Positions 53,021 through 62,697 of a stretch of DNA of 64,000 nt are shown here, piece by piece. Within the stretch, counting starts at the first letter, position 1. Every line of letters begins with the position of its first letter. The translations under genes were made by a program, and so were the position numbers. The DNA comes from a virus. The notes under the pieces were generated by a model. That model was not told the DNA's origin and did no database searches. It saw only the letters and a list, made by a program, of their open reading frames with translations. The stretch covers positions 74,723 through 138,722 of IMG/VR virus record IMGVR_UViG_3300034073_002480; one strand, given 5' to 3'.

Positions 53021-55096
53021 CTAAAACTCTTCATCGTAGTCAGGCAGGTATAAATCATCCTCTTTATCTACAGATGGCAACTCATAAGTACCATTAAAAA
53101 TCTGCGATAGTAAGTTTTTAGCTTCCTCTGCCCATGATAGACCCTCAAGACCTACAGAGTAACCTTCAACAATTAGATCAGAGGTTTCCGCTTTTTCAAG
53201 TAGTTTGTTGTCAATAAATTTATCTACATCTGTGTGAGAAATCCAGTAGGAAGTTACAGGATTTTTCTGCCCTTGTCTATGGCATCTGCCCTCTAGCTGC
53301 TCGTTGAGATTCCAGTCTCTATCAACCAAGATAACTTTACAAGCAGAGAACAAGTTGATACCAACACCTCCAGCTTGTGCCATTGCTACAATACAATCTA
53401 AATTTTTGCTCTGAAAAGCATCAAACATAGGTTGACGTTGTTTTTGAGGTGTAGAGCCTGTCAACAAACCAACAGAAAAACCAGCATTTTGTATAGCTTC
53501 TGTTAATTTTTCTGCTGTGTCACGGAAAGTGGTAAACAACACAACCTGCTCACCAGAATCACCATCAACACCTTGTAGAATAGAGAGTGCCATATCTAAC
53601 GAGGTTTCGATTTTCGCAATAGAACCTGCATGTCTAAGATGGTTGAGTAATACTAATTCCCAACCTTCATTAGAAATCTCGGAATCAGCTACACGTTGAT
53701 TGTATTCTGCTTGAAGTTCTAAAAATACACGGTTGTATTCTTTTTGTGCTTCTGGTGATAACTCACCTTCAACTACTTCTCTAGTAAAAGGTGGTAAAAC
53801 AAGAACATCTTTTTTCTTTCTACGAATCATAACAGGCTGTTCTTTTGTCAGAATGTCGTGTAGCTCTTTTAAATGCCCTTGAGACAACGAACCATATCGG
53901 TCGTAGAATTTTTTCTTATTGTTTGCCAGAGGATGTTTCAACCCTTTGAGGATAGGTAGAATATCCAAAGGCGCACCGTTTTTAATAGGAGTAGCAGACA
54001 TTGCGATGTTAGCGATCAAGTGTGGTGATTCACACAACGCCAACCACTTCTTAGTCCTTTGACTACCAAAATTTTTAAACGCATGACACTCATCAGTGAT
54101 TAGAACAAACTTACGATTAATGCTTGTAGCTAAAGGAATACGTCCTGCTGTTTGTCCAACAACTTGTATTTTGCAACCAACATATTCTGCTTCTCGATAC
54201 CAATTAGACATTGTGGAAATTGGTACGATGCAGATGATATCACAATCAAATACTTGCTGATAAGTAGCAGCAGCTTTGAGACTCTGAATCGTCTTACCAA
54301 GCCCTAAATCGTCACCTACAAGAACTTTCTCATGCTCAAAAATAAACCGTACACACTCTTTCTGGTAATCATGTAGCAACCAACCATTTGCCAGAGGTTC
54401 ATCTAGTCGTGCTACTTTGAGCAATTTGTTGACCCTAGCCTGTTGTGCTTCCTTGCGGATCTCAAGTTCAAGTGCAGCCAATTTTCTTCTTTTCTCTTGT
54501 TCTGCCTTAGAAGCCAAAACTTCGGGGGCATAATCAAAATGTGTGCTAGGTAGCACTTGTTGCAAAGCGTCCAACCAGTCCAATGGCAACTGCCAGTATT
54601 TAGTAGGTTCTCCCAAGTACTTAGCTACAGTATGACCTTGCACTTGTATAGTCTTGATTGCTTTTACCCAAGGGTAGAAGTTAGACGGCATCTGGACTGT
54701 AAGTAGACTGTCTTGGAGAAAAACTCGACCCATAGAAGATAAAGTAGCAGGTGGTAGCTTTGTTACAACAGGTTGATAAGGGTAGAGTCGTTCACGTTCT
54801 CGTAACCAGATATCTAACTCCCCTGTTGTTGGTAGTTTTATACCAGCAGGTGCAAGTTGACGGTTATTATGCCGCCACAGAATTTTAAGAATCTTTTGTG
54901 TCTGTAGATCAGACAGTCGCTGTTTTGCTGCTTGTCGGGCAATAGATGTACCAAATACAGTAGATGCACCATCAAACCCAATATTGTTACGTTGAGAAGC
55001 ATTATCAGGGTCGTTGCGTAGCATAATTGCTAGTGCTGCCTCAATTTCTGGGTGATTCTGGTTAGCTGTGATGTCAAATGTTACAGTTGTAGTCAT
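53021..55096 (-). CDS. SNF2-family helicase/translocase
   Basis: DDLGLGKT, DECH, SATPIKN, RRKKKDVL, GINL, QLEGRCHRQGQ. Confidence 0.92.
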   Translation of the reverse strand: MTTTVTFDITANQNHPEIEAALAIMLRNDPDNASQRNNIGFDGASTVFGTSIARQAAKQRLSDLQTQKILKILWRHNNRQLAPAGIKLPTTGELDIWLRERERLYPYQPVVTKLPPATLSSMGRVFLQDSLLTVQMPSNFYPWVKAIKTIQVQGHTVAKYLGEPTKYWQLPLDWLDALQQVLPSTHFDYAPEVLASKAEQEKRRKLAALELEIRKEAQQARVNKLLKVARLDEPLANGWLLHDYQKECVRFIFEHEKVLVGDDLGLGKTIQSLKAAATYQQVFDCDIICIVPISTMSNWYREAEYVGCKIQVVGQTAGRIPLATSINRKFVLITDECHAFKNFGSQRTKKWLALCESPHLIANIAMSATPIKNGAPLDILPILKGLKHPLANNKKKFYDRYGSLSQGHLKELHDILTKEQPVMIRRKKKDVLVLPPFTREVVEGELSPEAQKEYNRVFLELQAEYNQRVADSEISNEGWELVLLNHLRHAGSIAKIETSLDMALSILQGVDGDSGEQVVLFTTFRDTAEKLTEAIQNAGFSVGLLTGSTPQKQRQPMFDAFQSKNLDCIVAMAQAGGVGINLFSACKVILVDRDWNLNEQLEGRCHRQGQKNPVTSYWISHTDVDKFIDNKLLEKAETSDLIVEGYSVGLEGLSWAEEAKNLLSQIFNGTYELPSVDKEDDLYLPDYDEEF

Positions 55097-55561
55097 TGTT
55101 TTTGTCCTAATGTGTTTGTTTTTCTACGGTGGATTAGTGTACCACCACGCCCTGCTAGGTACAGGGACGACTCCTTTTGTTTTATTTGCGTGGAGTCAGC
55201 AAAGTTAATCTACTTTTTTCAAATGTTCAAAAGCTTCTTGCCAGTTAACTCTGGACAATGCAGCGTTGATAAGGTCAGTTTGCATTGGATTGGTATTGTC
55301 AATGGGAAGTACAACAGATTCTACCCATTCTTGAAAGTCATCTTGGTTATCATGACTTCTTGTAGTAGAAAGGTGTCGTTGATTGTTCCCGATCTCCAAA
55401 ACTACTAAAAAAGTTTCGTAGTTTGTGTAGCCTTGATATGACTGGTCTTGCATGGAAAATAACCTAAAAATTTAATGTGCTGTTAGTTTATGCTTATATT
55501 GTCTAGCTGTTAATATAGACGTAATAATTCGTAACAATTAAACCTGAAAAAAGAAAGAAAT

Positions 55562-55672
55562 GCACTGTATGGGCTTTAAAACACGTTATAAGACACAATA
55601 CGATCTAAATGATAAAAGATAGCTCTAAGACATTTTCCTGTCTTATAACGCGATATAACCGCTATACAGTGC
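55562..55672. repeat. Long imperfect inverted repeat
   Basis: GCACTGTAT/ATACAGTGC outer arms and CGTTATAAGACA/TGTCTTATAACG inner arms. Confidence 0.75.
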
Positions 55673-55989
55673 GATCTATAAGTAAATATAGATCATGTTT
55701 GAAGGAATACAGAGGTCATCTGCATACCAACCTCTGGATTTGATCTCGGTAGTCTTAAAAGATACAGTGTAGTCTGTGACAACCATACCTACTATAGTAT
55801 GACCATATTGCTCATGCCATACATGAGCAAGTTCTGCTAAATCCGTCTCAAACCAAGGATCAGGGTAGATAGTGACCATAGAAGAAAAGTGGGTAGGTAA
55901 CAGTTTCCCACGACCGCTTGTGCAGTACACAAGGGTTTCGGCTACCACTGTTGAGGTAGCCTCGTCAGGTGGTGTGCAAAGCACGGTAG

Positions 55990-57228
55990 CTACAATCGTG
56001 TTATTGTACCTCCCGATTTTTGTACACAAGTAGCAACATCAGGCTGGACGCGCCAATCACCTGACAAATCGACAAAGTGTACCTTGCAAGTAGCGTCAGG
56101 AGGTAATTGTTGAAAATTACGGATTTCACCGTCAGATAGCAGAACAATCTCTGACCTATGCAAATCTGGTTCTTGCTGCAAGATATCCCAAGCTGTACAA
56201 ACTACTTGTCCGTAAGATGTACCTTGAAAGTAGTTGTTTGTGTTGCAGACATGCAGCATGATGTCCTGTGCATTGTCCTTTGTGACTTGACCCTTGTAGA
56301 AGAAGTCATTACCAAACATTGCCAGATGCAGAGTGTCACCATGCTGGACTACTGATTGTATGCTGTCAAGCAACACAGCAGCAGCAGTCTTGTCACGTTG
56401 ACCTTGCATAGAAGAAGAACAATCTAACAACAAGAAACGAGCGAACTTCCTACGAGCTTTCTTTTGTGGTACAAGAACCTGTGATTGATTAGCTACTAAA
56501 CGTGCTAGTCTAGTATTGGTGTCATACACATACTCCGACCGAGCCATAAACCGAGCTTCTTGTAGTGACCTATTGGATCTTTGTTGAGCGAAGTCGGTGC
56601 GTTCTGTTGTATCTTTGTTTTTGCCTTTATTGTAGGCGAGTTTTTCTTTGAGAACCAACGCAATGTCAGCTACTTGTCCTAAAGCCTTGCGGATTTTACT
56701 GCTATGCAGACGGATGTCATCAATCTGTTCTTCTGTTCCGAGCATAGTAGACAGAAACCCAGAACCTTCTGATGCTTCTGCTTTGTCTTTGCTACGACCA
56801 AAACAAGGTACACAGTGATTGTCAGGTGACTCTACTCTATCTTTTTTGCTGGTTGATGGTAAACCGCCAGCTGCAAAAGCTTCGTTTATTTTCAGAATGT
56901 CATCTTCTATGGTATGAGACTGCACCCATCCAGACTTGATGCAGTGCAACACAAATTCCTTGACGGTGGCATCATAAGCAATCTGTTTGTCTGTAACACC
57001 TACAGGATCATACTTGAACGACCAACTACCTGTGTTTGCCAAAACGTGTGCCACATGCTCACGATAGACCGTAGAAGAAAAATCATGGTACTTCGACTTA
57101 CCAATAAGTAGGTGATATAAATCTTGCACGATAGTGTAGTCAAAGTGTAACCCACCAGTGGATTTGCAACGGAGGTCATATTCCGAGGGGATTTCTAACT
57201 GTGTAGGGTTGGCAATTCTGTGTGTCAT
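55990..57228 (-). CDS. VWA (MIDAS) domain protein, ViaA-like (start approximate)
   Basis: LLDCSSSM (DxSxS), GTS, LLSDG; adjacent to the MoxR ATPase. Confidence 0.8.
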   Translation of the reverse strand: MTHRIANPTQLEIPSEYDLRCKSTGGLHFDYTIVQDLYHLLIGKSKYHDFSSTVYREHVAHVLANTGSWSFKYDPVGVTDKQIAYDATVKEFVLHCIKSGWVQSHTIEDDILKINEAFAAGGLPSTSKKDRVESPDNHCVPCFGRSKDKAEASEGSGFLSTMLGTEEQIDDIRLHSSKIRKALGQVADIALVLKEKLAYNKGKNKDTTERTDFAQQRSNRSLQEARFMARSEYVYDTNTRLARLVANQSQVLVPQKKARRKFARFLLLDCSSSMQGQRDKTAAAVLLDSIQSVVQHGDTLHLAMFGNDFFYKGQVTKDNAQDIMLHVCNTNNYFQGTSYGQVVCTAWDILQQEPDLHRSEIVLLSDGEIRNFQQLPPDATCKVHFVDLSGDWRVQPDVATCVQKSGGTITRL

Positions 57229-57232
57229 GTTC

Positions 57233-58360
57233 TCATGCCTCCACAAAAGTAGTGTCAGTGAAAATCTGCCACTGATACAGACGCTTACCAAACATTGACT
57301 GTAAACGTTCTACAGACTCAGGGTCAGTGTCTTCAAAAGCATAGCAGAGGTTTTTCACTTTCATATCAAGCTTCTGCATATGTGGCAGGGAAATATCCCC
57401 GATATTTAGTTCTGCAAGACTTTCAATCATCTCACAGATGTCTAGATCTTCTGCAATAATTTCTGGTTCAGGTGTAGGTGGTTCTGGGTCTATCCACCAT
57501 GTTTCTGCATCACGGAAGTACATCTGCATAGGCTCAGGATACGCCCATTGTGTGTCAAGAAAGTGTTGTAGTGTAAGTTGTTGTCCTGTACTTGCTGCCC
57601 ATGCTTCTGTTGTGGATAACAAGTGCAAAGCAGAACGGGGTGACATATAATCGTGGTTGCTCTTGTATTTTGCGTGTGCTTGTTGCAAAGCAGAAGCATA
57701 CAACGCGGATACTTGGTAGTCAAGATGCGGCTTGACTTTCTCTAATAAATCTTGCCAGCAGCCTGTATCGCGGAGTTGTGCTGCCGACCATTGGAGTTGA
57801 TAAGCTAACGGAAAGCGCTGCAAAAGAGCGTCTACCGTATTGCGAGATTCTTCACTGACAGAATCAAGAACCTCTGCTTTACTTTTGTTCGTTAAGCAGA
57901 TCAACCACTCACACTTCGAGGTGTAAGTTTGTAGTGGTGTGCGAAATTCACCTGATGTAAGAGTCTGCTTCATTTCGACTAACGCAGACAACTGTGCGTC
58001 AAAGAGTTCTTCAAACACCACATAGCGGCTTGCCAACCACGATGATTCAACATTGTAGATGAAATTAGGTAGTTGGTCGCCGCGTATCCCTGCCCAGATT
58101 TTCGTGGAGTCAGCTCCTCCACAGTCAAGAAGGTCACTGCTGTAATCAGGTATAGTCTGCGCCAACAGTTCGAGAAAGTGGTAGGTCATTTCGGATTTAC
58201 CGAAACCTCCCTTACCATACACGACAAGATTACGACCTGCCAGCCATGCTTGATACATGACCTGCGCGTATTCCTGCCACATCACGAACTTGGAGTTTTG
58301 AAAGTGATCAACTACTTTATTGTATGGTAGTAGATGAATTTTATTCTGCACTGATAGCAT
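57233..58360 (-). CDS. MoxR/RavA-like AAA+ ATPase
   Basis: GKGGFGKS, VFEELF, LTN, ALLQRF, SPR. Confidence 0.8.
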   Translation of the reverse strand: MLSVQNKIHLLPYNKVVDHFQNSKFVMWQEYAQVMYQAWLAGRNLVVYGKGGFGKSEMTYHFLELLAQTIPDYSSDLLDCGGADSTKIWAGIRGDQLPNFIYNVESSWLASRYVVFEELFDAQLSALVEMKQTLTSGEFRTPLQTYTSKCEWLICLTNKSKAEVLDSVSEESRNTVDALLQRFPLAYQLQWSAAQLRDTGCWQDLLEKVKPHLDYQVSALYASALQQAHAKYKSNHDYMSPRSALHLLSTTEAWAASTGQQLTLQHFLDTQWAYPEPMQMYFRDAETWWIDPEPPTPEPEIIAEDLDICEMIESLAELNIGDISLPHMQKLDMKVKNLCYAFEDTDPESVERLQSMFGKRLYQWQIFTDTTFVEA

Positions 58361-58782: not shown

Positions 58783-58809
58783 AAAAAAGGTAGGGCTTAC
58801 AACCCTACC
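58783..58809 (-). terminator. Intrinsic terminator
   Basis: GGTAGGG/CCCTACC stem plus T6. Confidence 0.7.
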
Positions 58810-59248
58810 ACATAGAAGAGAAGTGTAGATTACCAAAGTTTTGTCAAAACAAAACCAGACTCGATGCGTGAGAAACGAAAGTAGTTGAGAATTGCTTCTA
58901 ACGTATTGTAGAATTGATCTTCTGTCTGGTAAACAAAACTAGGGTATACCGAGAACATGACTACAACTTGGTTGAACCTATCGTGACAACCAGATGCTTT
59001 ACTACCAGCATCAACACGAATGACTTCTGAAACCAGAATTTCTAAATCACTGTAATATGCAAGAAAATATTCGTCTACTTGCTCTGGTGTAAACCTATCT
59101 GGGAAATTAGCCTTCAAAGAAGCTGCAATACAAGAAGCGATAGAGAAAGGTGAATAACTAGCTGTAGCCCCAGTATCTTTATGGCAAGCAGCTACTTGTA
59201 CGGTTGTGAAATTAACTTGCATTTGTTTTTATCCTTGTAGAATATGAA

Positions 59249-59310
59249 CACTGTTTCGGGTTGGATGATTAAAAGACCCTCATCAGATGGTGCAGTACAC
59301 CATGACAGTG
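59249..59310 (-). ncRNA. Type III hammerhead ribozyme (HH1)
   Basis: CACUG-UC^-AUGGUG(UACUG)CACCAU-CUGAUGA-GGGU(14 nt)ACCC-GAAA-CAGUG: full catalytic core, three stems, GUC cleavage site. Confidence 0.92.
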
Positions 59311-60113
59311 ACCATAGAAGAGAAGTGTGTTGTGTTTCTCTTCTATGTTGTAGTTAGTTGTCTTGTTGTGTGAGATCGTGGATAATCAAGTAGTCACAGT
59401 CAATATGATAAACACGATAAGCTCTATCGGTGTTACGAGAAAATTCCACACAATAGATATCTGTACGAGCAGGCAACGGATGCACATAAGCTAGATGCTC
59501 CTGTACTGATGCTTGCAACTGCAACGCCATATAAATGCAACGTGCATGATAGTCAGAGTTAATAGTTACCAAACAATCCGCACTTTTTTCTGTCAACGAT
59601 GGTTTGTACTGCAACCGCGACAGAATAGTGTACAAGAGGTCGTTCTGACCTGCGTGGTTTTCAGAGCAGTACCAGTACAATGCTTGATAATAATCTGCAT
59701 AAGTGAGAGTTGAAATTTGCTTGACCGTAGAAAGAAATAGTTCAGACATTGTATTAACCTAGTGCGTAGTCTACGAGTTTGTTGTAATCTGTAAATACTG
59801 CTTTGAGTTGTTCTGTACCATCTGGTGCTACCCAAATTAAATACCAAAAACCCATAAAGCGAAAGTAGGTGAGATAAGCTACTGTGTTTTGCATGATAGA
59901 AAGAAAGTTTTATGATCAGATCATCTAGATAAACTTAAATACGAATAGCAACTGCAAAAGTAAACTCACGCCAGAAATAATCAAGAGTTTGGCAAACGAA
60001 AGGTGTCATCAACAGCAGACCACGTTTTGTATCGTGTTTGACTGCTTCAAGATAAAACCACATTTCTGCTAATGCAGATGTCTGTAAGATATAAAGCATT
60101 GTGTTTTGTCCTT

Positions 60114-60180
60114 GGAGTGTAGAAATTGGTTACTCCTCACAACAGGCTACATATAAATAACCTGTTGTAAGGAAAAATCA
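60114..60180 (-). repeat. Intergenic structured element, copy B
   Basis: Same flanks as 52250..52322 with a different but fully paired inner stem. Confidence 0.7.
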
Positions 60181-60807
60181 ATCGTCAATATTTGCGGCAG
60201 ATAACTGCGTTACAACAGTCTTGGTTTGTAGTCCAAAATAGACGGTCTCTTTGTTGTCATAGCAAGCGGAGTATAAATCACCAACAGGTTTGATAAATAG
60301 AAGATCAGCCTCATTCTCATCTGCAAAAGTGTCAGCAGCCCAGTGTACTTCAATTGGCACAGGTAGCAACCAATCATTGCAGTACCAAACGTTACCTAAC
60401 TCCTGTTGTTGCACAGCGCTGCGGATATAAGCATCATCATTGACCTGCGGGAGTTCGAGATCCATGAAGAACGCAAGCAATAATGCAGGGTCAGTTTGTT
60501 CTTGTAATACACGCTTGAATACACCCCATTGTGTTGTTACAAGCAGTATATCAGGCTGTTTAGCTTCTTCTGGCATCCAATCTTCATTGCAGAATGAAAA
60601 GGTGCATTCAATAGCTGCAATGAACTCACCGTTGTCTCCCTGTTTGGTGTTCTGGTACTCAATGACTGCTTCAACTTGTGGCTTGTATTGGACTGGTACA
60701 AAGATGCTGGTAGTGTTAGCGCCGTATTTGTCGTTGTTGTAAGAATTGGTAAGCATAGCAGTTTTTGTCCTGTGTATAAAAAAGAAGTGTACTGGTTATT
60801 TAGCTAC

Positions 60808-60848
60808 CAACTAACAAGGGAGTTACTTGTCACCTGCACAGTGTTATA
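60808..60848 (-). repeat. 41-bp intergenic direct repeat, copy 1
   Basis: 39/41 identical to 61474..61514. Confidence 0.9.
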
Positions 60849-61011
60849 TTTCCTCTATACACTCCCAAGGAGTTATAAAGTGAAGGAATTGCACCAGCAG
60901 TGGTGCTAGTTCCACATAGAGTGGAGGTTGTGCGTTGCTGTAGCGCAGAACCAATGCTGCGCCTTTTGTGTAAACCATTAAACTCATTATTTTATCCTTA
61001 TGTATATTTGT

Positions 61012-61061
61012 TGCTGTTTCGCTACTAGAGTAGCTCATCAGGGGTTAGTAACCCGACAGCA
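61012..61061 (-). ncRNA. Type III hammerhead ribozyme (HH2)
   Basis: UGCUG-UC^-GGGUU(ACU)AACCC-CUGAUGA-GCUAC(UCUA)GUAGC-GAAA-CAGCA. Confidence 0.93.
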
Positions 61062-61473
61062 GACCATAGAAGAGAGTTGTTAGCTTCTCTTCTATGTTGG
61101 TGTGTTATTTATAAGTGTCAACTGCTTTACCGTCAACAAAAGTAAATTCACGAAACAAAACTGCACCATCGTCTTCGGGGTCAAGTGTTGGATCTTCATA
61201 CCAAGCTATGTATATAGCTGTATTTTCTACATGGGCGATAGAGGTTAGTAGCAACCCCTCGTACTCCACACAAATAGCTTGTGCTGCTTCTTTGATGACT
61301 GGAGGGATATCTGCGTGCCAGTCGTAAACTGCGGTGTCAATATACTCCTCTTCGTCTTGTAATAAGTACCAATCTGCATCAAACTGGTCTTCAATCATTT
61401 GGTCTTCTGTTGTATGTGTCATTTTTTTTCTCCTGTAAAAGAATTGTACAACTTTTGACTACTTTAGTGCAGT

Positions 61474-61514: not shown

Positions 61515-61947
61515 GATAGTTCTGCAAGTCTAGATGTAATACTCGGTAATGATTGTTCACACGTTCAAACTCCTCAGTATCAGTAAGAGCTATGTAGATT
61601 TCTAATTCCCGATCACTAGATAATGCAGTGCAAACCTCTTCAACTGTAGCCCAACCTGAACCAATTACTGCCTTAATCTCTTTTAATAACTCTGACATAA
61701 CTAATAACCTATCGATCTATTTGTGCCGTACTATATTAACCCTATAAGCTATATATAGCAATGGTTACATCCTGATTTGTTACAAAAAGACATAAATCTT
61801 ATTATAAGTTCATTAAATAACCTGATATCTAGATGAATTTCAGTCAAATATCGTATATGGTTGTTGTTTGGTATCATAGGATACATTTCTGTATCTGCAA
61901 AGAAAAAAAGTACCTTGTAGGGTACGTCCATGACCATAGAAGAGAAG

Positions 61948-62697
61948 TTAGGTAGTTATATACAAACCATTGGTGTTCTTAACATTCTTATTTGTTGTAG
62001 TAAACCATTGGTTAAGGTCAGTAGCTTTAGCTTTCTTAAACATACCTAGAGAGTCATATATACCCTGTAGCTTGTTTTTAATATCTTTTAATGTATAAAA
62101 AGAATTAAGTTGAAATTCTACATATACAGCTTGTTGTAGATCTTGTTGAATCTCTGGTCTTGCATCTGCTAATGCTTGTTTGATTCTAGTAGGATTAAGA
62201 CCTAATGCTTTCATTTTCTTGACACCTAGCAGATTGTAAGCATCACGGATATCAGGGGCGTATACTTGTAACTGATCTACTGTTATATCACCTGCATCAT
62301 ATAACTCTACAACATCTTTAAAAACAGTTGATCCACCTTTATCTTTAACAACCTGCCTCAAAGCCGATCTACAATTAAAAAATGGTAATGTCTTCTTGTA
62401 TTGAAGGATATCAGGTAGTACAAGTTGTGAGTTCTTAGTACAATACAGTTTAGAGTTATTGTAAGGAGGTTTAAACAAACTGATGTAGTAAGTCTCGTAA
62501 ATCTCTACATCTAACTCAGACTCTAATTCTATATATTGAATATTGCCACGATCAATATCTACCTTCCATTCAGTCCCTTCAAGCTTATCTTCTATGTGAT
62601 ACCTAATACGACTTAGTAGATTGTTAGTTTTACCGATGTAAAGTAATTTACCACTACTATTATGAAGAAAATAGACTGCTTTTATAGATTGTGTCAT
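61948..62697 (-). CDS. GIY-YIG domain protein with an unrelated C-terminal helical domain
   Basis: AVYFL...LYIGKT..L..R...E.YYI....PPYN. Confidence 0.75.
   Translation of the reverse strand: MTQSIKAVYFLHNSSGKLLYIGKTNNLLSRIRYHIEDKLEGTEWKVDIDRGNIQYIELESELDVEIYETYYISLFKPPYNNSKLYCTKNSQLVLPDILQYKKTLPFFNCRSALRQVVKDKGGSTVFKDVVELYDAGDITVDQLQVYAPDIRDAYNLLGVKKMKALGLNPTRIKQALADARPEIQQDLQQAVYVEFQLNSFYTLKDIKNKLQGIYDSLGMFKKAKATDLNQWFTTTNKNVKNTNGLYITT

What the first reader, a model, noticed from the sequence alone, without database searches (positions are those of the whole stretch)
59222..61100. Two hammerhead ribozymes in identical 'motif hairpin - ribozyme - RBS' cassettes
Seen: both minus-strand elements have the invariant core (CUGAUGA, GAAA, GUC cleavage triplet, G-C closing stem II) with different but fully paired stems and a shared loop I UACUR. 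Each follows a stop codon and a hairpin formed by two inverted copies of the dispersed CATAGAAGAGA motif (59313-59347; 61065-61096), and each precedes AAGGAUAAAA and an ATG (59222; 60987). Established: hammerheads leave 5'-OH and 2',3'-cyclic phosphate ends. Inference: protein-independent processing of the early polycistronic mRNA, with a 5'-OH-protected downstream message and a hairpin-protected upstream 3' end, physically linked to the genome-wide motif.
Basis: partly seen in the sequence, partly recalled or inferred. Interest (0 to 1): 0.85.

Follow-up and report, generated by a model that had tools for sequence, protein, structure and literature searches.

The report
Hairpin-plus-hammerhead cassettes between phage genes
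Two self-cutting hammerhead RNA motifs, each right after a hairpin and just before the next gene's start, lie between small genes of an uncultured phage; this is a known kind of phage element, and its fixed layout suggests that it cuts a multi-gene message into separately capped pieces.

Summary
Both minus-strand elements (window 61012-61061 and 59249-59310) are canonical type III hammerheads. The core is complete and the cleavage triplet is GUC. Rfam RF00008 matches them full-length at 39.7 and 33.0 bits, below its 48.5-bit cut-off. They are the only two in the 138.7-kb genome, against 0.07 expected by chance. Six more copies of the cassette turned up: one in the only related complete phage and five on metagenome contigs. 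Across all eight, 11 of 18 stem pairs covary and the core never changes. The layout is fixed: stop codon, a hairpin of 11-15 pairs, 0-3 nt, the hammerhead, then 21-26 nt carrying a ribosome-binding site and the start codon. The layout is not special to this phage. Of 104 assessable unrelated viral hammerheads, 83 have a stable hairpin ending within 3 nt upstream, against 91 of 545 random positions. Most likely this is self-cleavage of a polycistronic phage mRNA, an idea already in print (Perreault 2011). I saw no RNA data. Whether a 5'-OH end protects depends on the host, and "early" is unverified. The hairpin arms match the dispersed motif, but it is the pairing that is conserved. New members of a known kind; moderate interest.

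The parts
61105..61422 (-). Upstream ORF of cassette A (105 aa, no family hit); stop codon at 61105-61107
61065..61096 (-). Hairpin A. The 11-bp arms are 61086-61096 and 61065-61075, both exact copies of the dispersed motif. The loop is 10 nt and A/C-rich. Three nt separate it from stem III.
   Evidence: dG -14.5 kcal/mol
61012..61061 (-). HH-A, a type III hammerhead; predicted cleavage between 61055 (C17) and 61054
   Evidence: RF00008 39.7 bits; descriptor; MFE fold is the three-way junction; own model 61.5 bits
60985..60999 (-). AAGGATAAAA ribosome-binding box (60990-60999) and ATG (60985-60987) of the 47-aa ORF
   Evidence: the same AGGAYAAAA box precedes the start codon in 6 of 8 cassettes
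60844..60987 (-). Downstream ORF of cassette A (47 aa from the RBS-linked ATG; no family hit)
59354..59749 (-). Upstream ORF of cassette B (131 aa). A homologue lies before the ribozyme-free hairpin in G001 and before the L229 cassette.
59313..59347 (-). Hairpin B. The 12-bp arms are 59336-59347 and 59313-59324. The loop is 11 nt and A/C-rich. Two nt separate it from stem III.
   Evidence: dG -15.3 kcal/mol
59249..59310 (-). HH-B, a type III hammerhead with a 14-nt loop II; predicted cleavage between 59304 (C17) and 59303
   Evidence: RF00008 33.0 bits; descriptor; fold; own model 70.5 bits
59220..59236 (-). AAGGATAAAA box (59227-59236) and ATG (59220-59222) of the 130-aa ORF
58830..59222 (-). 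Downstream ORF of cassette B (130 aa, no family hit). Homologues at 91% and 62% identity follow the cassette on L230 and L207.
58789..58809 (-). Intrinsic-terminator-like hairpin with a T-run that closes the unit after the 130-aa ORF. A single motif copy (58811-58821) lies directly 5' of it.

Best explanation
Each element is a constitutive, protein-independent RNA-processing cassette inside a co-directional phage operon.

Proposed sequence of events:
1. RNA polymerase transcribes through the stop codon of the upstream gene, then a hairpin of 11-15 pairs that has no U-tract, then the type III hammerhead, which starts 0-3 nt after the hairpin.
2. The hammerhead folds and cuts after C17 of its GUC triplet (61055|61054 and 59304|59303).
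3. The upstream RNA then ends in the hairpin plus a 9-10-nt tail carrying a 2',3'-cyclic phosphate.
4. The downstream RNA starts with a 5'-OH nucleotide that is already base-paired in stem I. It carries the folded ribozyme body as a 5' cap-like structure, followed 21-26 nt later by the RBS and start codon.

The operon is thereby cut into pieces whose decay and translation no longer depend on each other. Here the pieces would be about 0.8 kb, 1.75 kb and 0.5 kb.

Shown here: the motif, its conservation, its covariation, and the fixed architecture, both in this phage clade and in unrelated phages.

Inferred: cleavage in vivo, the fate of the products, and whether the benefit is stabilisation, insulation or both.
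For: Ribozyme identity
- The core is complete, the triplet is GUC and stem II closes with G-C.
- RF00008 matches over the full model at 33.0, 39.7 and 44.1 bits.
- The minimum-free-energy folds of all three genomic copies give hairpin plus three-way junction, with z-scores of -4.3, -3.4 and -5.4.
- There are two hits in the genome against 0.07 expected.

Selection
- There are 8 family members: window x2, G001 x1, and metagenome contigs L207, L210, L229, L230 and L238.
- 99.3% of 139 pair cells are standard pairs.
- 11 of 18 pairs change on both sides.
- The covariation score is 0.615, against 0.233 in shuffles (0 of 500 reach it) and at most 0.143 in the slid controls.
- Core columns are invariant.

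Architecture
- Stop codon to hammerhead is 40-48 nt in 8 of 8.
- The hairpin ends 0-3 nt before stem III in 8 of 8.
- A start codon lies 21-26 nt downstream in 7 of 8, and 6 of those have an AGGAYAAAA box.

Hairpin selected as RNA
- G-U pairs occur in 3 members, and L210 has a matched deletion in both arms.

Generality
- 120 viral loci were picked only by a hammerhead pattern. 113 carry a strict hammerhead.
- 24 carry two or more, always on one strand.
- Of 104 assessable unique ribozymes, 90 have an upstream hairpin of -8 kcal/mol or better. 83 end within 3 nt (random positions 91 of 545) and 64 abut directly (random 21 of 545).
- Only 7 of the 90 hairpins are followed by a U-rich tract.
- 88 of 104 have an ORF stop within 80 nt upstream (random 135 of 545). 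The median distance to the next start is 22 nt.
- Against ribozyme-free co-directional intergenic regions of the same loci: 36 of 37 versus 185 of 318 have such a hairpin, Mann-Whitney p 7e-5 (first 80 loci only).

Literature
- Clustered hammerheads flanking genes in prophages cleave about 2-kb polycistronic transcripts in vitro, and were proposed to process phage mRNAs (PMC3088659, passages; review PMC6765202, passages).
- The synthetic hammerhead insulator RiboJ raised transcript abundance about twofold in E. coli (PMC6206723, abstract).
Against: - No RNA evidence of any kind was available, so cleavage is untested.
- All Rfam scores are below the curated 48.5-bit cut-off.
- Loop sequences are not conserved: loop II ranges from 4 to 18 nt, and UACU is in loop I in only 5 of 8 members. 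A loop-loop tertiary contact, and therefore fast cleavage at cellular Mg2+, cannot be asserted.
- HH-C in G001 is followed by a bidirectional terminator and not by a gene.
- G001 has the same motif hairpin without any ribozyme at the junction orthologous to cassette B. The ribozyme is therefore dispensable there.
- Predicted RBS accessibility is not consistently changed by cleavage. The mean unpaired probability changes by 0.12 or less in 5 of 6 cassettes.
- In hosts with RNase J, a 5'-OH end may destabilise rather than protect (recalled, not tested).
Confidence: 0.6

Rival explanations
1. The cassettes are mainly mobile regulatory junctions, in the manner of the promoter/stem-loop cassettes (PeSLs) of T4-type phages. 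On this reading the conserved hairpin arms and ribozyme act as short homologies at which small accessory genes are swapped, and RNA cleavage is secondary. This does not exclude the best explanation.
For: - The cassette stays conserved where both flanks are unrelated. HH-C versus L238: arms 100%, ribozyme 96%, flanking ORFs at the background level of 54-65%. HH-A versus L210: ribozyme 94%. L207 versus L229: arms 100%, ribozyme 81%, leader 90% (unrelated segments give about 50-60% with this scoring).
- Gene combinations differ. The 130-aa gene family follows three different upstream genes, and the 131-aa family precedes two different downstream genes.
- Against L230, homology starts at the 3' arm: loop 15% identical, 3' arm 100%.
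- In DNA contigs of relatives, homology breaks cluster at 59304-59348 and 61011-61075 (loose ends).
- The G000 region between the GIY-YIG gene and the AAA gene holds about 3 kb of ORFs that G001 lacks.
- PeSL papers exist (PMC2839356, PMC4122927; search listing only).
Against: - Purifying selection on a functional RNA, together with ordinary gene turnover, gives the same pattern.
- Arms of 11-12 nt are short for homologous exchange.
- The joints have short sides (23-40 nt) at 80% likeness and may be repeat artefacts.
- There are only 8 members.
- Covariation shows selection on the RNA fold, which a pure DNA recombination site would not need.
Confidence: 0.25
2. Cleavage is a down-regulating cut. 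The 5'-OH downstream fragment is a preferred substrate of a host 5'-exonuclease such as RNase J, as with the glmS ribozyme in Bacillus. The cassette would then lower expression of distal genes relative to proximal ones.
For: - The position between cistrons fits equally well.
- The nearest isolated relatives by capsid protein are Pseudanabaena cyanophages, at 33% identity over 90% of the query. Cyanobacteria have RNase J (recalled).
- HH-C sits before a terminator with no gene to protect.
Against: - After cleavage the 5' nucleotide is base-paired in stem I in all 8 members. That would hinder 5'-end-dependent nucleases (inference).
- 7 of 8 cassettes are followed by a well-placed start codon, and 6 of those 7 have a clear RBS box. 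That suggests the downstream gene is meant to be expressed.
- The host is unknown.
Confidence: 0.12
3. The two same-strand hammerheads excise the 1,751-nt segment between the cut sites (61054 to 59304). That segment has the 5'-OH and 2',3'-cyclic-phosphate ends that an RtcB-type ligase, or the ribozyme's own reverse reaction, could join into a circular or spliced RNA, as in retrozymes and viroid-like RNAs.
For: - There are two type III hammerheads in direct orientation.
- The end chemistry is that of the ribozyme class (established).
- Perreault 2011 raised this possibility for clustered prophage hammerheads (passage).
Against: - Perreault 2011 report that they could not detect spliced or circular products.
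- G001 carries a single hammerhead in the whole genome by descriptor and model. On the metagenome contigs only the held loci were scanned: L207, L210 and L238 whole, but 6 of 23 kb of L229's contig and 14 of 21 kb of L230's. One was found in each.
- No RNA data.
Confidence: 0.04
4. The motifs are chance look-alikes or decayed, inactive relics.
For: - Rfam scores are below the gathering score.
- The whole-window Rfam scan reported nothing.
Against: - 0.07 are expected per shuffled genome and 2 are observed.
- The core is invariant and there are compensatory changes in 11 of 18 pairs over 8 members.
- The negative is a filter loss, because the same model matches when a short stretch is given.
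Confidence: 0.03

Closest known systems
Type III hammerhead ribozymes clustered between genes of prophages and phages (Perreault et al. 2011, PMC3088659; Rfam RF00008)
   Same: The catalytic core, the three-helix type III topology and the GUC site are the same. So are the intergenic position, the occurrence of several copies on one strand flanking single genes or short gene blocks, and the proposed role in cutting polycistronic phage RNA (passages).
   Different: - These copies score under the Rfam cut-off.
- They belong to a small family seen only in this phage clade: 8 members, and none in 185,579 prokaryote genomes by the cassette pattern.
- The hairpin that abuts stem III, and the fixed distances to the stop and start codons, are not mentioned in the main text of that paper (term search). 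Its supplements were not seen.
RiboJ, a synthetic hammerhead-based 5'-UTR insulator used in bacterial circuits
   Same: A hammerhead placed just upstream of an RBS removes the upstream RNA context and leaves a structured 5'-OH leader. RiboJ raised transcript abundance about twofold and protein 2-10-fold in E. coli (PMC6206723, abstract).
   Different: From recall, RiboJ is engineered from a plant satellite RNA ribozyme, and its extra hairpin lies downstream of the ribozyme. Here the extra hairpin lies upstream and stays with the upstream fragment. This is a resemblance in how it works, not membership.
PeSL cassettes (promoter-early stem-loops) of T4-type phages (PMC2839356, PMC4122927; search listing only)
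   Same: Both are short conserved regulatory cassettes with a stem-loop. Both sit between small variable ORFs in a hyperplastic region and are conserved while the flanking genes differ.
   Different: PeSLs are promoter-terminator composites with no ribozyme. No promoter was identified in these cassettes. A recombination role is not shown here.
Intrinsic (Rho-independent) terminators and intercistronic stabiliser stem-loops
   Same: A stable hairpin just after a stop codon can block 3' exonucleases.
   Different: The motif hairpins lack the U-tract (one search flagged only the opposite strand of hairpin B). They are followed immediately by the ribozyme, so the 3' end would be made by RNA self-cleavage rather than by termination or a host RNase.

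Membership tests
Hammerhead ribozyme, type III (Rfam RF00008) | Core strand C3-U4-G5-A6-N7-G8-A9 between stems I and II | tested here: met
   CUGAUGA is present in both window copies and is invariant in all 8 family members.
Hammerhead ribozyme, type III (Rfam RF00008) | Core strand G12-A13-A14 followed by the A15.1-U16.1 pair, and a cleavage triplet N-U-H | tested here: met
   GAAA then the stem III 3' strand. The U16.1-A15.1 pair is invariant. The triplet is GUC in 8 of 8.
Hammerhead ribozyme, type III (Rfam RF00008) | Three helices around the core, with stems I and II closed by loops and stem III open | tested here: met
   The MFE folds show it. 99.3% of 139 cells are paired, and 11 of 18 pairs have compensatory changes spread over all three helices. 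No type I or type II arrangement exists in G000 or G001.
Hammerhead ribozyme, type III (Rfam RF00008) | Score at or above Rfam's curated gathering score (48.5 bits) | tested here: not met
   33.0, 39.7 and 44.1 bits. This is an operational cut-off of one seed-based model and not a biochemical criterion. The matches span model positions 1-54 with E of 5e-6 to 1e-9 for the sequence searched.
Hammerhead ribozyme, type III (Rfam RF00008) | Loop I - loop II tertiary contact that gives fast cleavage at physiological Mg2+ | not testable with these tools
   The loops vary: loop II is 4-18 nt, and UACU is in loop I in 5 of 8. No conserved complementary loop pair was evident.
Hammerhead ribozyme, type III (Rfam RF00008) | Site-specific self-cleavage giving 5'-OH and 2',3'-cyclic phosphate ends | not testable with these tools
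   No RNA run holds the locus. A bench assay is needed.
Intrinsic terminator | G+C-rich hairpin followed directly by a U-tract on the transcribed strand | tested here: not met
   On the minus strand the motif hairpins are A/U-rich and are followed by the stem III strand, not by a U-run. True terminator-like sites lie at 58809-58789 and 61925-61910.
PeSL-type mobile regulatory cassette | Conserved cassette at the borders of gene replacements between related phages, containing a promoter | tested here: inconclusive
   The cassette is conserved with unrelated flanks in 3 pairs and joins different gene combinations. No promoter was found in it. There are only 8 members.

The most novel reading that the evidence does not exclude
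The hairpin-hammerhead unit may be a portable 'gene connector' of phages.

At the RNA level, the hairpin stacked on the short open stem III would be a functional part of the ribozyme module. It would define a nuclease-resistant 3' end without any host enzyme.

At the DNA level, the conserved cassette would be the junction at which small accessory genes are exchanged. In this clade the arms are copies of a motif scattered about 80 times over the genome.

If so, the abutting-hairpin architecture found here in about 80% of sampled phage type III hammerheads would give the long-sought function of bacterial and phage hammerheads a concrete, testable form.
Probability: 0.25. Interest if true: 0.7.

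Novelty: new member of a known kind. Interest (0 to 1): 0.4.

Why it matters
What the thousands of hammerheads in bacteria and phages actually do is still called unresolved in the 2019 review I read (passages).

This locus adds no new ribozyme class. It does give an unusually clean anatomy:
- the distances to the stop and start codons are fixed;
- a hairpin abuts stem III, and its pairing is kept by compensatory changes;
- there is a natural control, the same hairpin without the ribozyme at the orthologous junction of the sister phage.

The same hairpin-then-ribozyme layout recurs in most sampled hammerheads of unrelated phages. That turns 'mRNA processing' into a specific hypothesis that a bicistronic reporter can test: a hairpin-capped 3' end made without host RNases, and a ribozyme-capped 5' end.

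These would also be natural, compact insulator parts for operon design.

Tried and rejected
Rfam filter losses
- Rfam on the whole window at gathering threshold gave 0 matches. A 2.5-kb E-value search showed no hammerhead.
- Both are filter losses and not evidence of absence, because 81-91-nt searches find both.
- The genome search on the window's own genome found HH-A only.

Pattern scans that returned only chance matches
- Motif plus ribozyme pattern in viral contigs: 70 stretches, 0 real hammerheads.
- The cassette pattern in genome contigs: 29 stretches, 0 real.
- In metagenome contigs: 41 stretches, of which 5 are real cassettes and 1 (L244) is a spurious descriptor hit.

Searches for relatives
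- The 192-aa ORF found no related locus.
- The capsid alignment found only G001 and a 6.5-kb fragment.
- blastn of the 7-kb region against isolated phages gave no match.
- The two Pseudanabaena phages nearest by capsid (33% identity) gave no hammerhead: best RF00008 score 11.4 bits, in a search with limited first-look sensitivity. L229 and L230 were not searched there because they are not held.

Other negative results
- Type I and type II descriptors found nothing in G000 or G001.
- My own covariance model without filters found no third copy in the window; the next best score is 12.1 bits.
- PHROGs and Pfam gave no hit for the flanking small ORFs. The protein atlas gave nothing for the 130-aa ORF.
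- RBS unmasking by cleavage showed no consistent predicted change, so I rejected it as a general mechanism.
- The conserved element at 60761-60849 has no Rfam hit and no significant fold.

Expression
- No RNA holder is listed. The single read-laying run therefore used DNA contigs of X5-X8 only. Parts without cover, and the short-sided joints, are not used as evidence of absence.

Literature
- Searches found no paper describing a hairpin abutting phage hammerheads.
- The library lacks many subscription papers, and supplements are closed. The alignments and figures in Perreault 2011's supplements may show it.

Superseded counts
- Searches used only the first 80 of the 120 loci. One search repeats the counts on all 120. 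One search was not repeated.
Full report
WHAT IS THERE

The window is the last 64 kb of a 138,722-bp uncultured virus record, G000, which is 38% G+C and estimated complete. Genes in this part run on the minus strand.

There are two type III hammerheads, HH-A at 61012-61061 and HH-B at 59249-59310. Each has CUGAUGA, GAAA, a GUC cleavage triplet and a G-C pair closing stem II.

Each follows the stop codon of an ORF (105 aa and 131 aa). Each is preceded by a hairpin whose arms are inverted copies of CATAGAAGAGA (61065-61096 and 59313-59347). Each is followed by AAGGATAAAA and an ATG (60987 and 59222).

IS IT MORE THAN CHANCE?

Rfam's whole-window scan gave nothing, and so did a 2.5-kb permissive scan. 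That is a filter loss. On 81- and 91-nt stretches, RF00008 matches both elements over the whole model, at 39.7 and 33.0 bits. Both are below the 48.5-bit gathering score.

A structural descriptor requires the core, three uninterrupted stems and N-U-H. It finds exactly these two sites in the genome on both strands. In 60 dinucleotide-preserving shuffles it finds 0.07 per genome, and none as strong.

Type I and type II descriptors find nothing. A covariance model of the family, run without filters, finds no third copy in the window. The minimum-free-energy folds are hairpin plus canonical three-way junction.

RELATIVES AND COVARIATION

The clade is rare.
- The AAA-ATPase gene 0.9 kb downstream found one related complete phage, G001 (132 kb, 74% protein identity, syntenic).
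- The capsid protein found only G001 and a fragment.
- The nearest isolates are two Pseudanabaena cyanophages at 33% capsid identity. They show no hammerhead in a search of limited sensitivity.

G001 has one hammerhead, HH-C. It lies behind the same motif hairpin, after a 118-aa ORF. It is followed by a bidirectional terminator instead of a gene.

A cassette pattern scan of metagenome contigs gave 41 stretches. Five of them (L207, L210, L229, L230, L238) are true cassettes. The same pattern found none in 185,579 prokaryote genomes.

Over the eight members the core is invariant. Of 139 pair cells, 99.3% are standard pairs. Eleven of the 18 pairs change on both sides: 6 of 8 in stem I, 3 of 4 in stem II and 2 of 6 in stem III. 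The covariation score is 0.615, against 0.233 in shuffles (0 of 500 reach it) and at most 0.143 when partners are slid. One stem I pair runs C-G, U-G, U-A across members.

Two caveats apply. There are only eight related sequences. And the stems were partly defined by requiring pairing.

THE CASSETTE

The spacing is fixed.
- Stop codon to hammerhead is 40-48 nt in 8 of 8.
- The hairpin has 11-15 pairs, at -11 to -17 kcal/mol, and ends 0-3 nt before stem III.
- The next start codon lies 21-26 nt after the ribozyme in 7 of 8. Six of those have an AGGAYAAAA box.

The hairpin behaves as an RNA helix. Three members use G-U pairs, which would be mismatches on the other strand. L210 keeps perfect pairing through a matched one-base deletion in both arms, which takes it away from the motif consensus.

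The hairpins have no U-tract on the transcribed strand. Genuine terminator-like sites lie at 61925-61910 and 58809-58789. These bracket a unit of about 3.1 kb, which the two ribozymes would cut into pieces of about 0.8, 1.75 and 0.5 kb.

THE SAME LAYOUT IN UNRELATED PHAGES

Results on all 120:
- 113 carry a strict hammerhead.
- 24 carry two or more, always on one strand. In the first 80 loci the spacings were 307-1951 nt.
- There are 109 unique ribozymes, of which 104 are assessable.
- 90 of the 104 have a hairpin of -8 kcal/mol or better in the 45 nt upstream.
- 83 end within 3 nt of the ribozyme, against 91 of 545 random positions.
- 64 abut it directly, against 21 of 545 random positions.
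- Only 7 of the 90 hairpins are followed by a U-rich tract.
- 88 have an ORF stop within 80 nt upstream, against 135 of 545 random positions.
- The median distance to the next start is 22 nt.

I also compared against ribozyme-free co-directional intergenic regions of the same loci, using the first 80 loci only. There, 36 of 37 versus 185 of 318 have such a hairpin (p 7e-5). So the enrichment is real but smaller than the comparison with random positions suggests.

The sample is biased to one stem III sequence and contains related contigs. The hairpin sequences in these phages are unrelated to this phage's motif.

MOST LIKELY MECHANISM

The cassette is transcribed as part of an operon. With 0-3 nt between hairpin and ribozyme, no promoter fits between them.

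The hammerhead cuts itself. The upstream RNA keeps the hairpin plus a 9-10-nt tail with a cyclic phosphate. The downstream RNA begins with a paired 5'-OH nucleotide and the folded ribozyme body, then the RBS.

This matches the published proposal that clustered prophage hammerheads process long phage transcripts, and their shown in vitro cleavage of about 2-kb RNAs (PMC3088659, passages; review passages). It also resembles the engineered RiboJ insulator, which raised transcript levels about twofold in E. coli (PMC6206723, abstract).

The abutting hairpin may also stack on the short open stem III, or keep terminating ribosomes away from the ribozyme. Both ideas are inferences.

Whether a 5'-OH end is protective depends on the host's RNases (recalled knowledge: RNase E versus RNase J). 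Predicted RBS accessibility is not consistently altered by cleavage.

EVIDENCE AGAINST, AND OPEN POINTS

- No RNA run holds the locus, so cleavage and 'early' timing are untested.
- The loops are not conserved, so fast kinetics cannot be assumed.
- HH-C has no downstream gene.
- G001 has the motif hairpin without a ribozyme exactly where G000 has cassette B plus two extra ORFs.

A SECOND, NON-EXCLUSIVE READING

The cassette is conserved where its flanks are not (where unrelated segments score about 50-60%).
- HH-C versus L238: ribozyme 96%, arms 100%, flanks at background.
- HH-A versus L210: ribozyme 94%.
- L207 versus L229: ribozyme 81%, leader 90%.

The 130-aa gene family follows three different upstream genes.

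Against L230, similarity begins at the 3' arm of the hairpin. DNA contigs of relatives lose similarity at 59304-59348 and 61011-61075. Those alignments are short-sided and made at 80% likeness, so this is weak.

This looks like the modular shuffling described for PeSL cassettes of T4-type phages (search listing only). Purifying selection on the RNA combined with gene turnover would look the same.

THE DISPERSED MOTIF

The motif is real and unexplained.
- Counts with at most 1 mismatch: 41 in the window against 1.65 expected, 78 in G000 and 49 in G001.
- Genic copies lie in both orientations and in several frames. That points to a DNA-level signal.
- Intergenic copies mostly place UCUCUUCUAUG in the mRNA.
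- Inverted pairs occur only at the two ribozymes in G000.

I could not assign it a function.

VERDICT

These are genuine hammerheads: new members of a known kind, in a known genomic role. The added value is the precisely conserved hairpin-ribozyme-RBS architecture and its generality. I did not find that generality described in the searchable literature.

Noticed in passing
whole window and genome; e.g. window 58811-58821, 61935-61945: The dispersed motif has the consensus (A)cCATAGAAGAGAAagt. It has 78 copies with at most 1 mismatch in G000 and 49 in G001. Inside genes it lies in both orientations and in several frames. Intergenic copies mostly read UCUCUUCUAUG in the mRNA. Two copies lie directly 5' of the terminator-like hairpins at 58809-58789 and 61925-61910. 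Its function is unknown.
   Followed up: partly
L072 7933-7965 (= G001 79210-79242), + strand: The related phage has the same motif hairpin without any hammerhead, directly before the RBS of the AAA-ATPase gene. This is the junction where G000 has cassette B plus the 130-aa and 76-aa ORFs. It is a natural 'hairpin only' control.
   Followed up: partly
window 60761-60849: The intergenic stretch between the 47-aa and 192-aa ORFs has the highest contig depth in relatives, and many homology breaks occur at its edges. It has no significant fold and no Rfam hit. It may be a conserved promoter or another junction element.
   Followed up: partly
window 60118-60170, minus strand: A perfect 18-bp intercistronic hairpin lies between the 192-aa and 54-aa ORFs (z -5.4). 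It has no ribozyme and no motif (it also appeared as a weak mir-280 look-alike).
   Followed up: no
viral loci L081-L200: Many unrelated viral contigs carry 2-3 type III hammerheads on one strand at gene-length spacing, each abutted by a G+C-rich hairpin. One recurrent hairpin family with a GUGUCUUCAAAGACAC-like stem is shared by many contigs.
   Followed up: partly
window 61948-62697 and 53021-58360, minus strand: The neighbourhood is replication-type. It holds a GIY-YIG endonuclease-like gene (only its first ~104 residues match a 588-aa protein in G001), an AAA-like gene, a VWA-domain gene and an SNF2 helicase. The small ORFs between them have no family.
   Followed up: partly
method note, window 59249-59310 and 61012-61061: cmscan with default or 'permissive' filters on 2.5 kb or more missed both hammerheads, which it scores at 33-40 bits on stretches under 100 nt. 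Negative Rfam scans of whole windows therefore do not exclude short ribozymes.
   Followed up: yes
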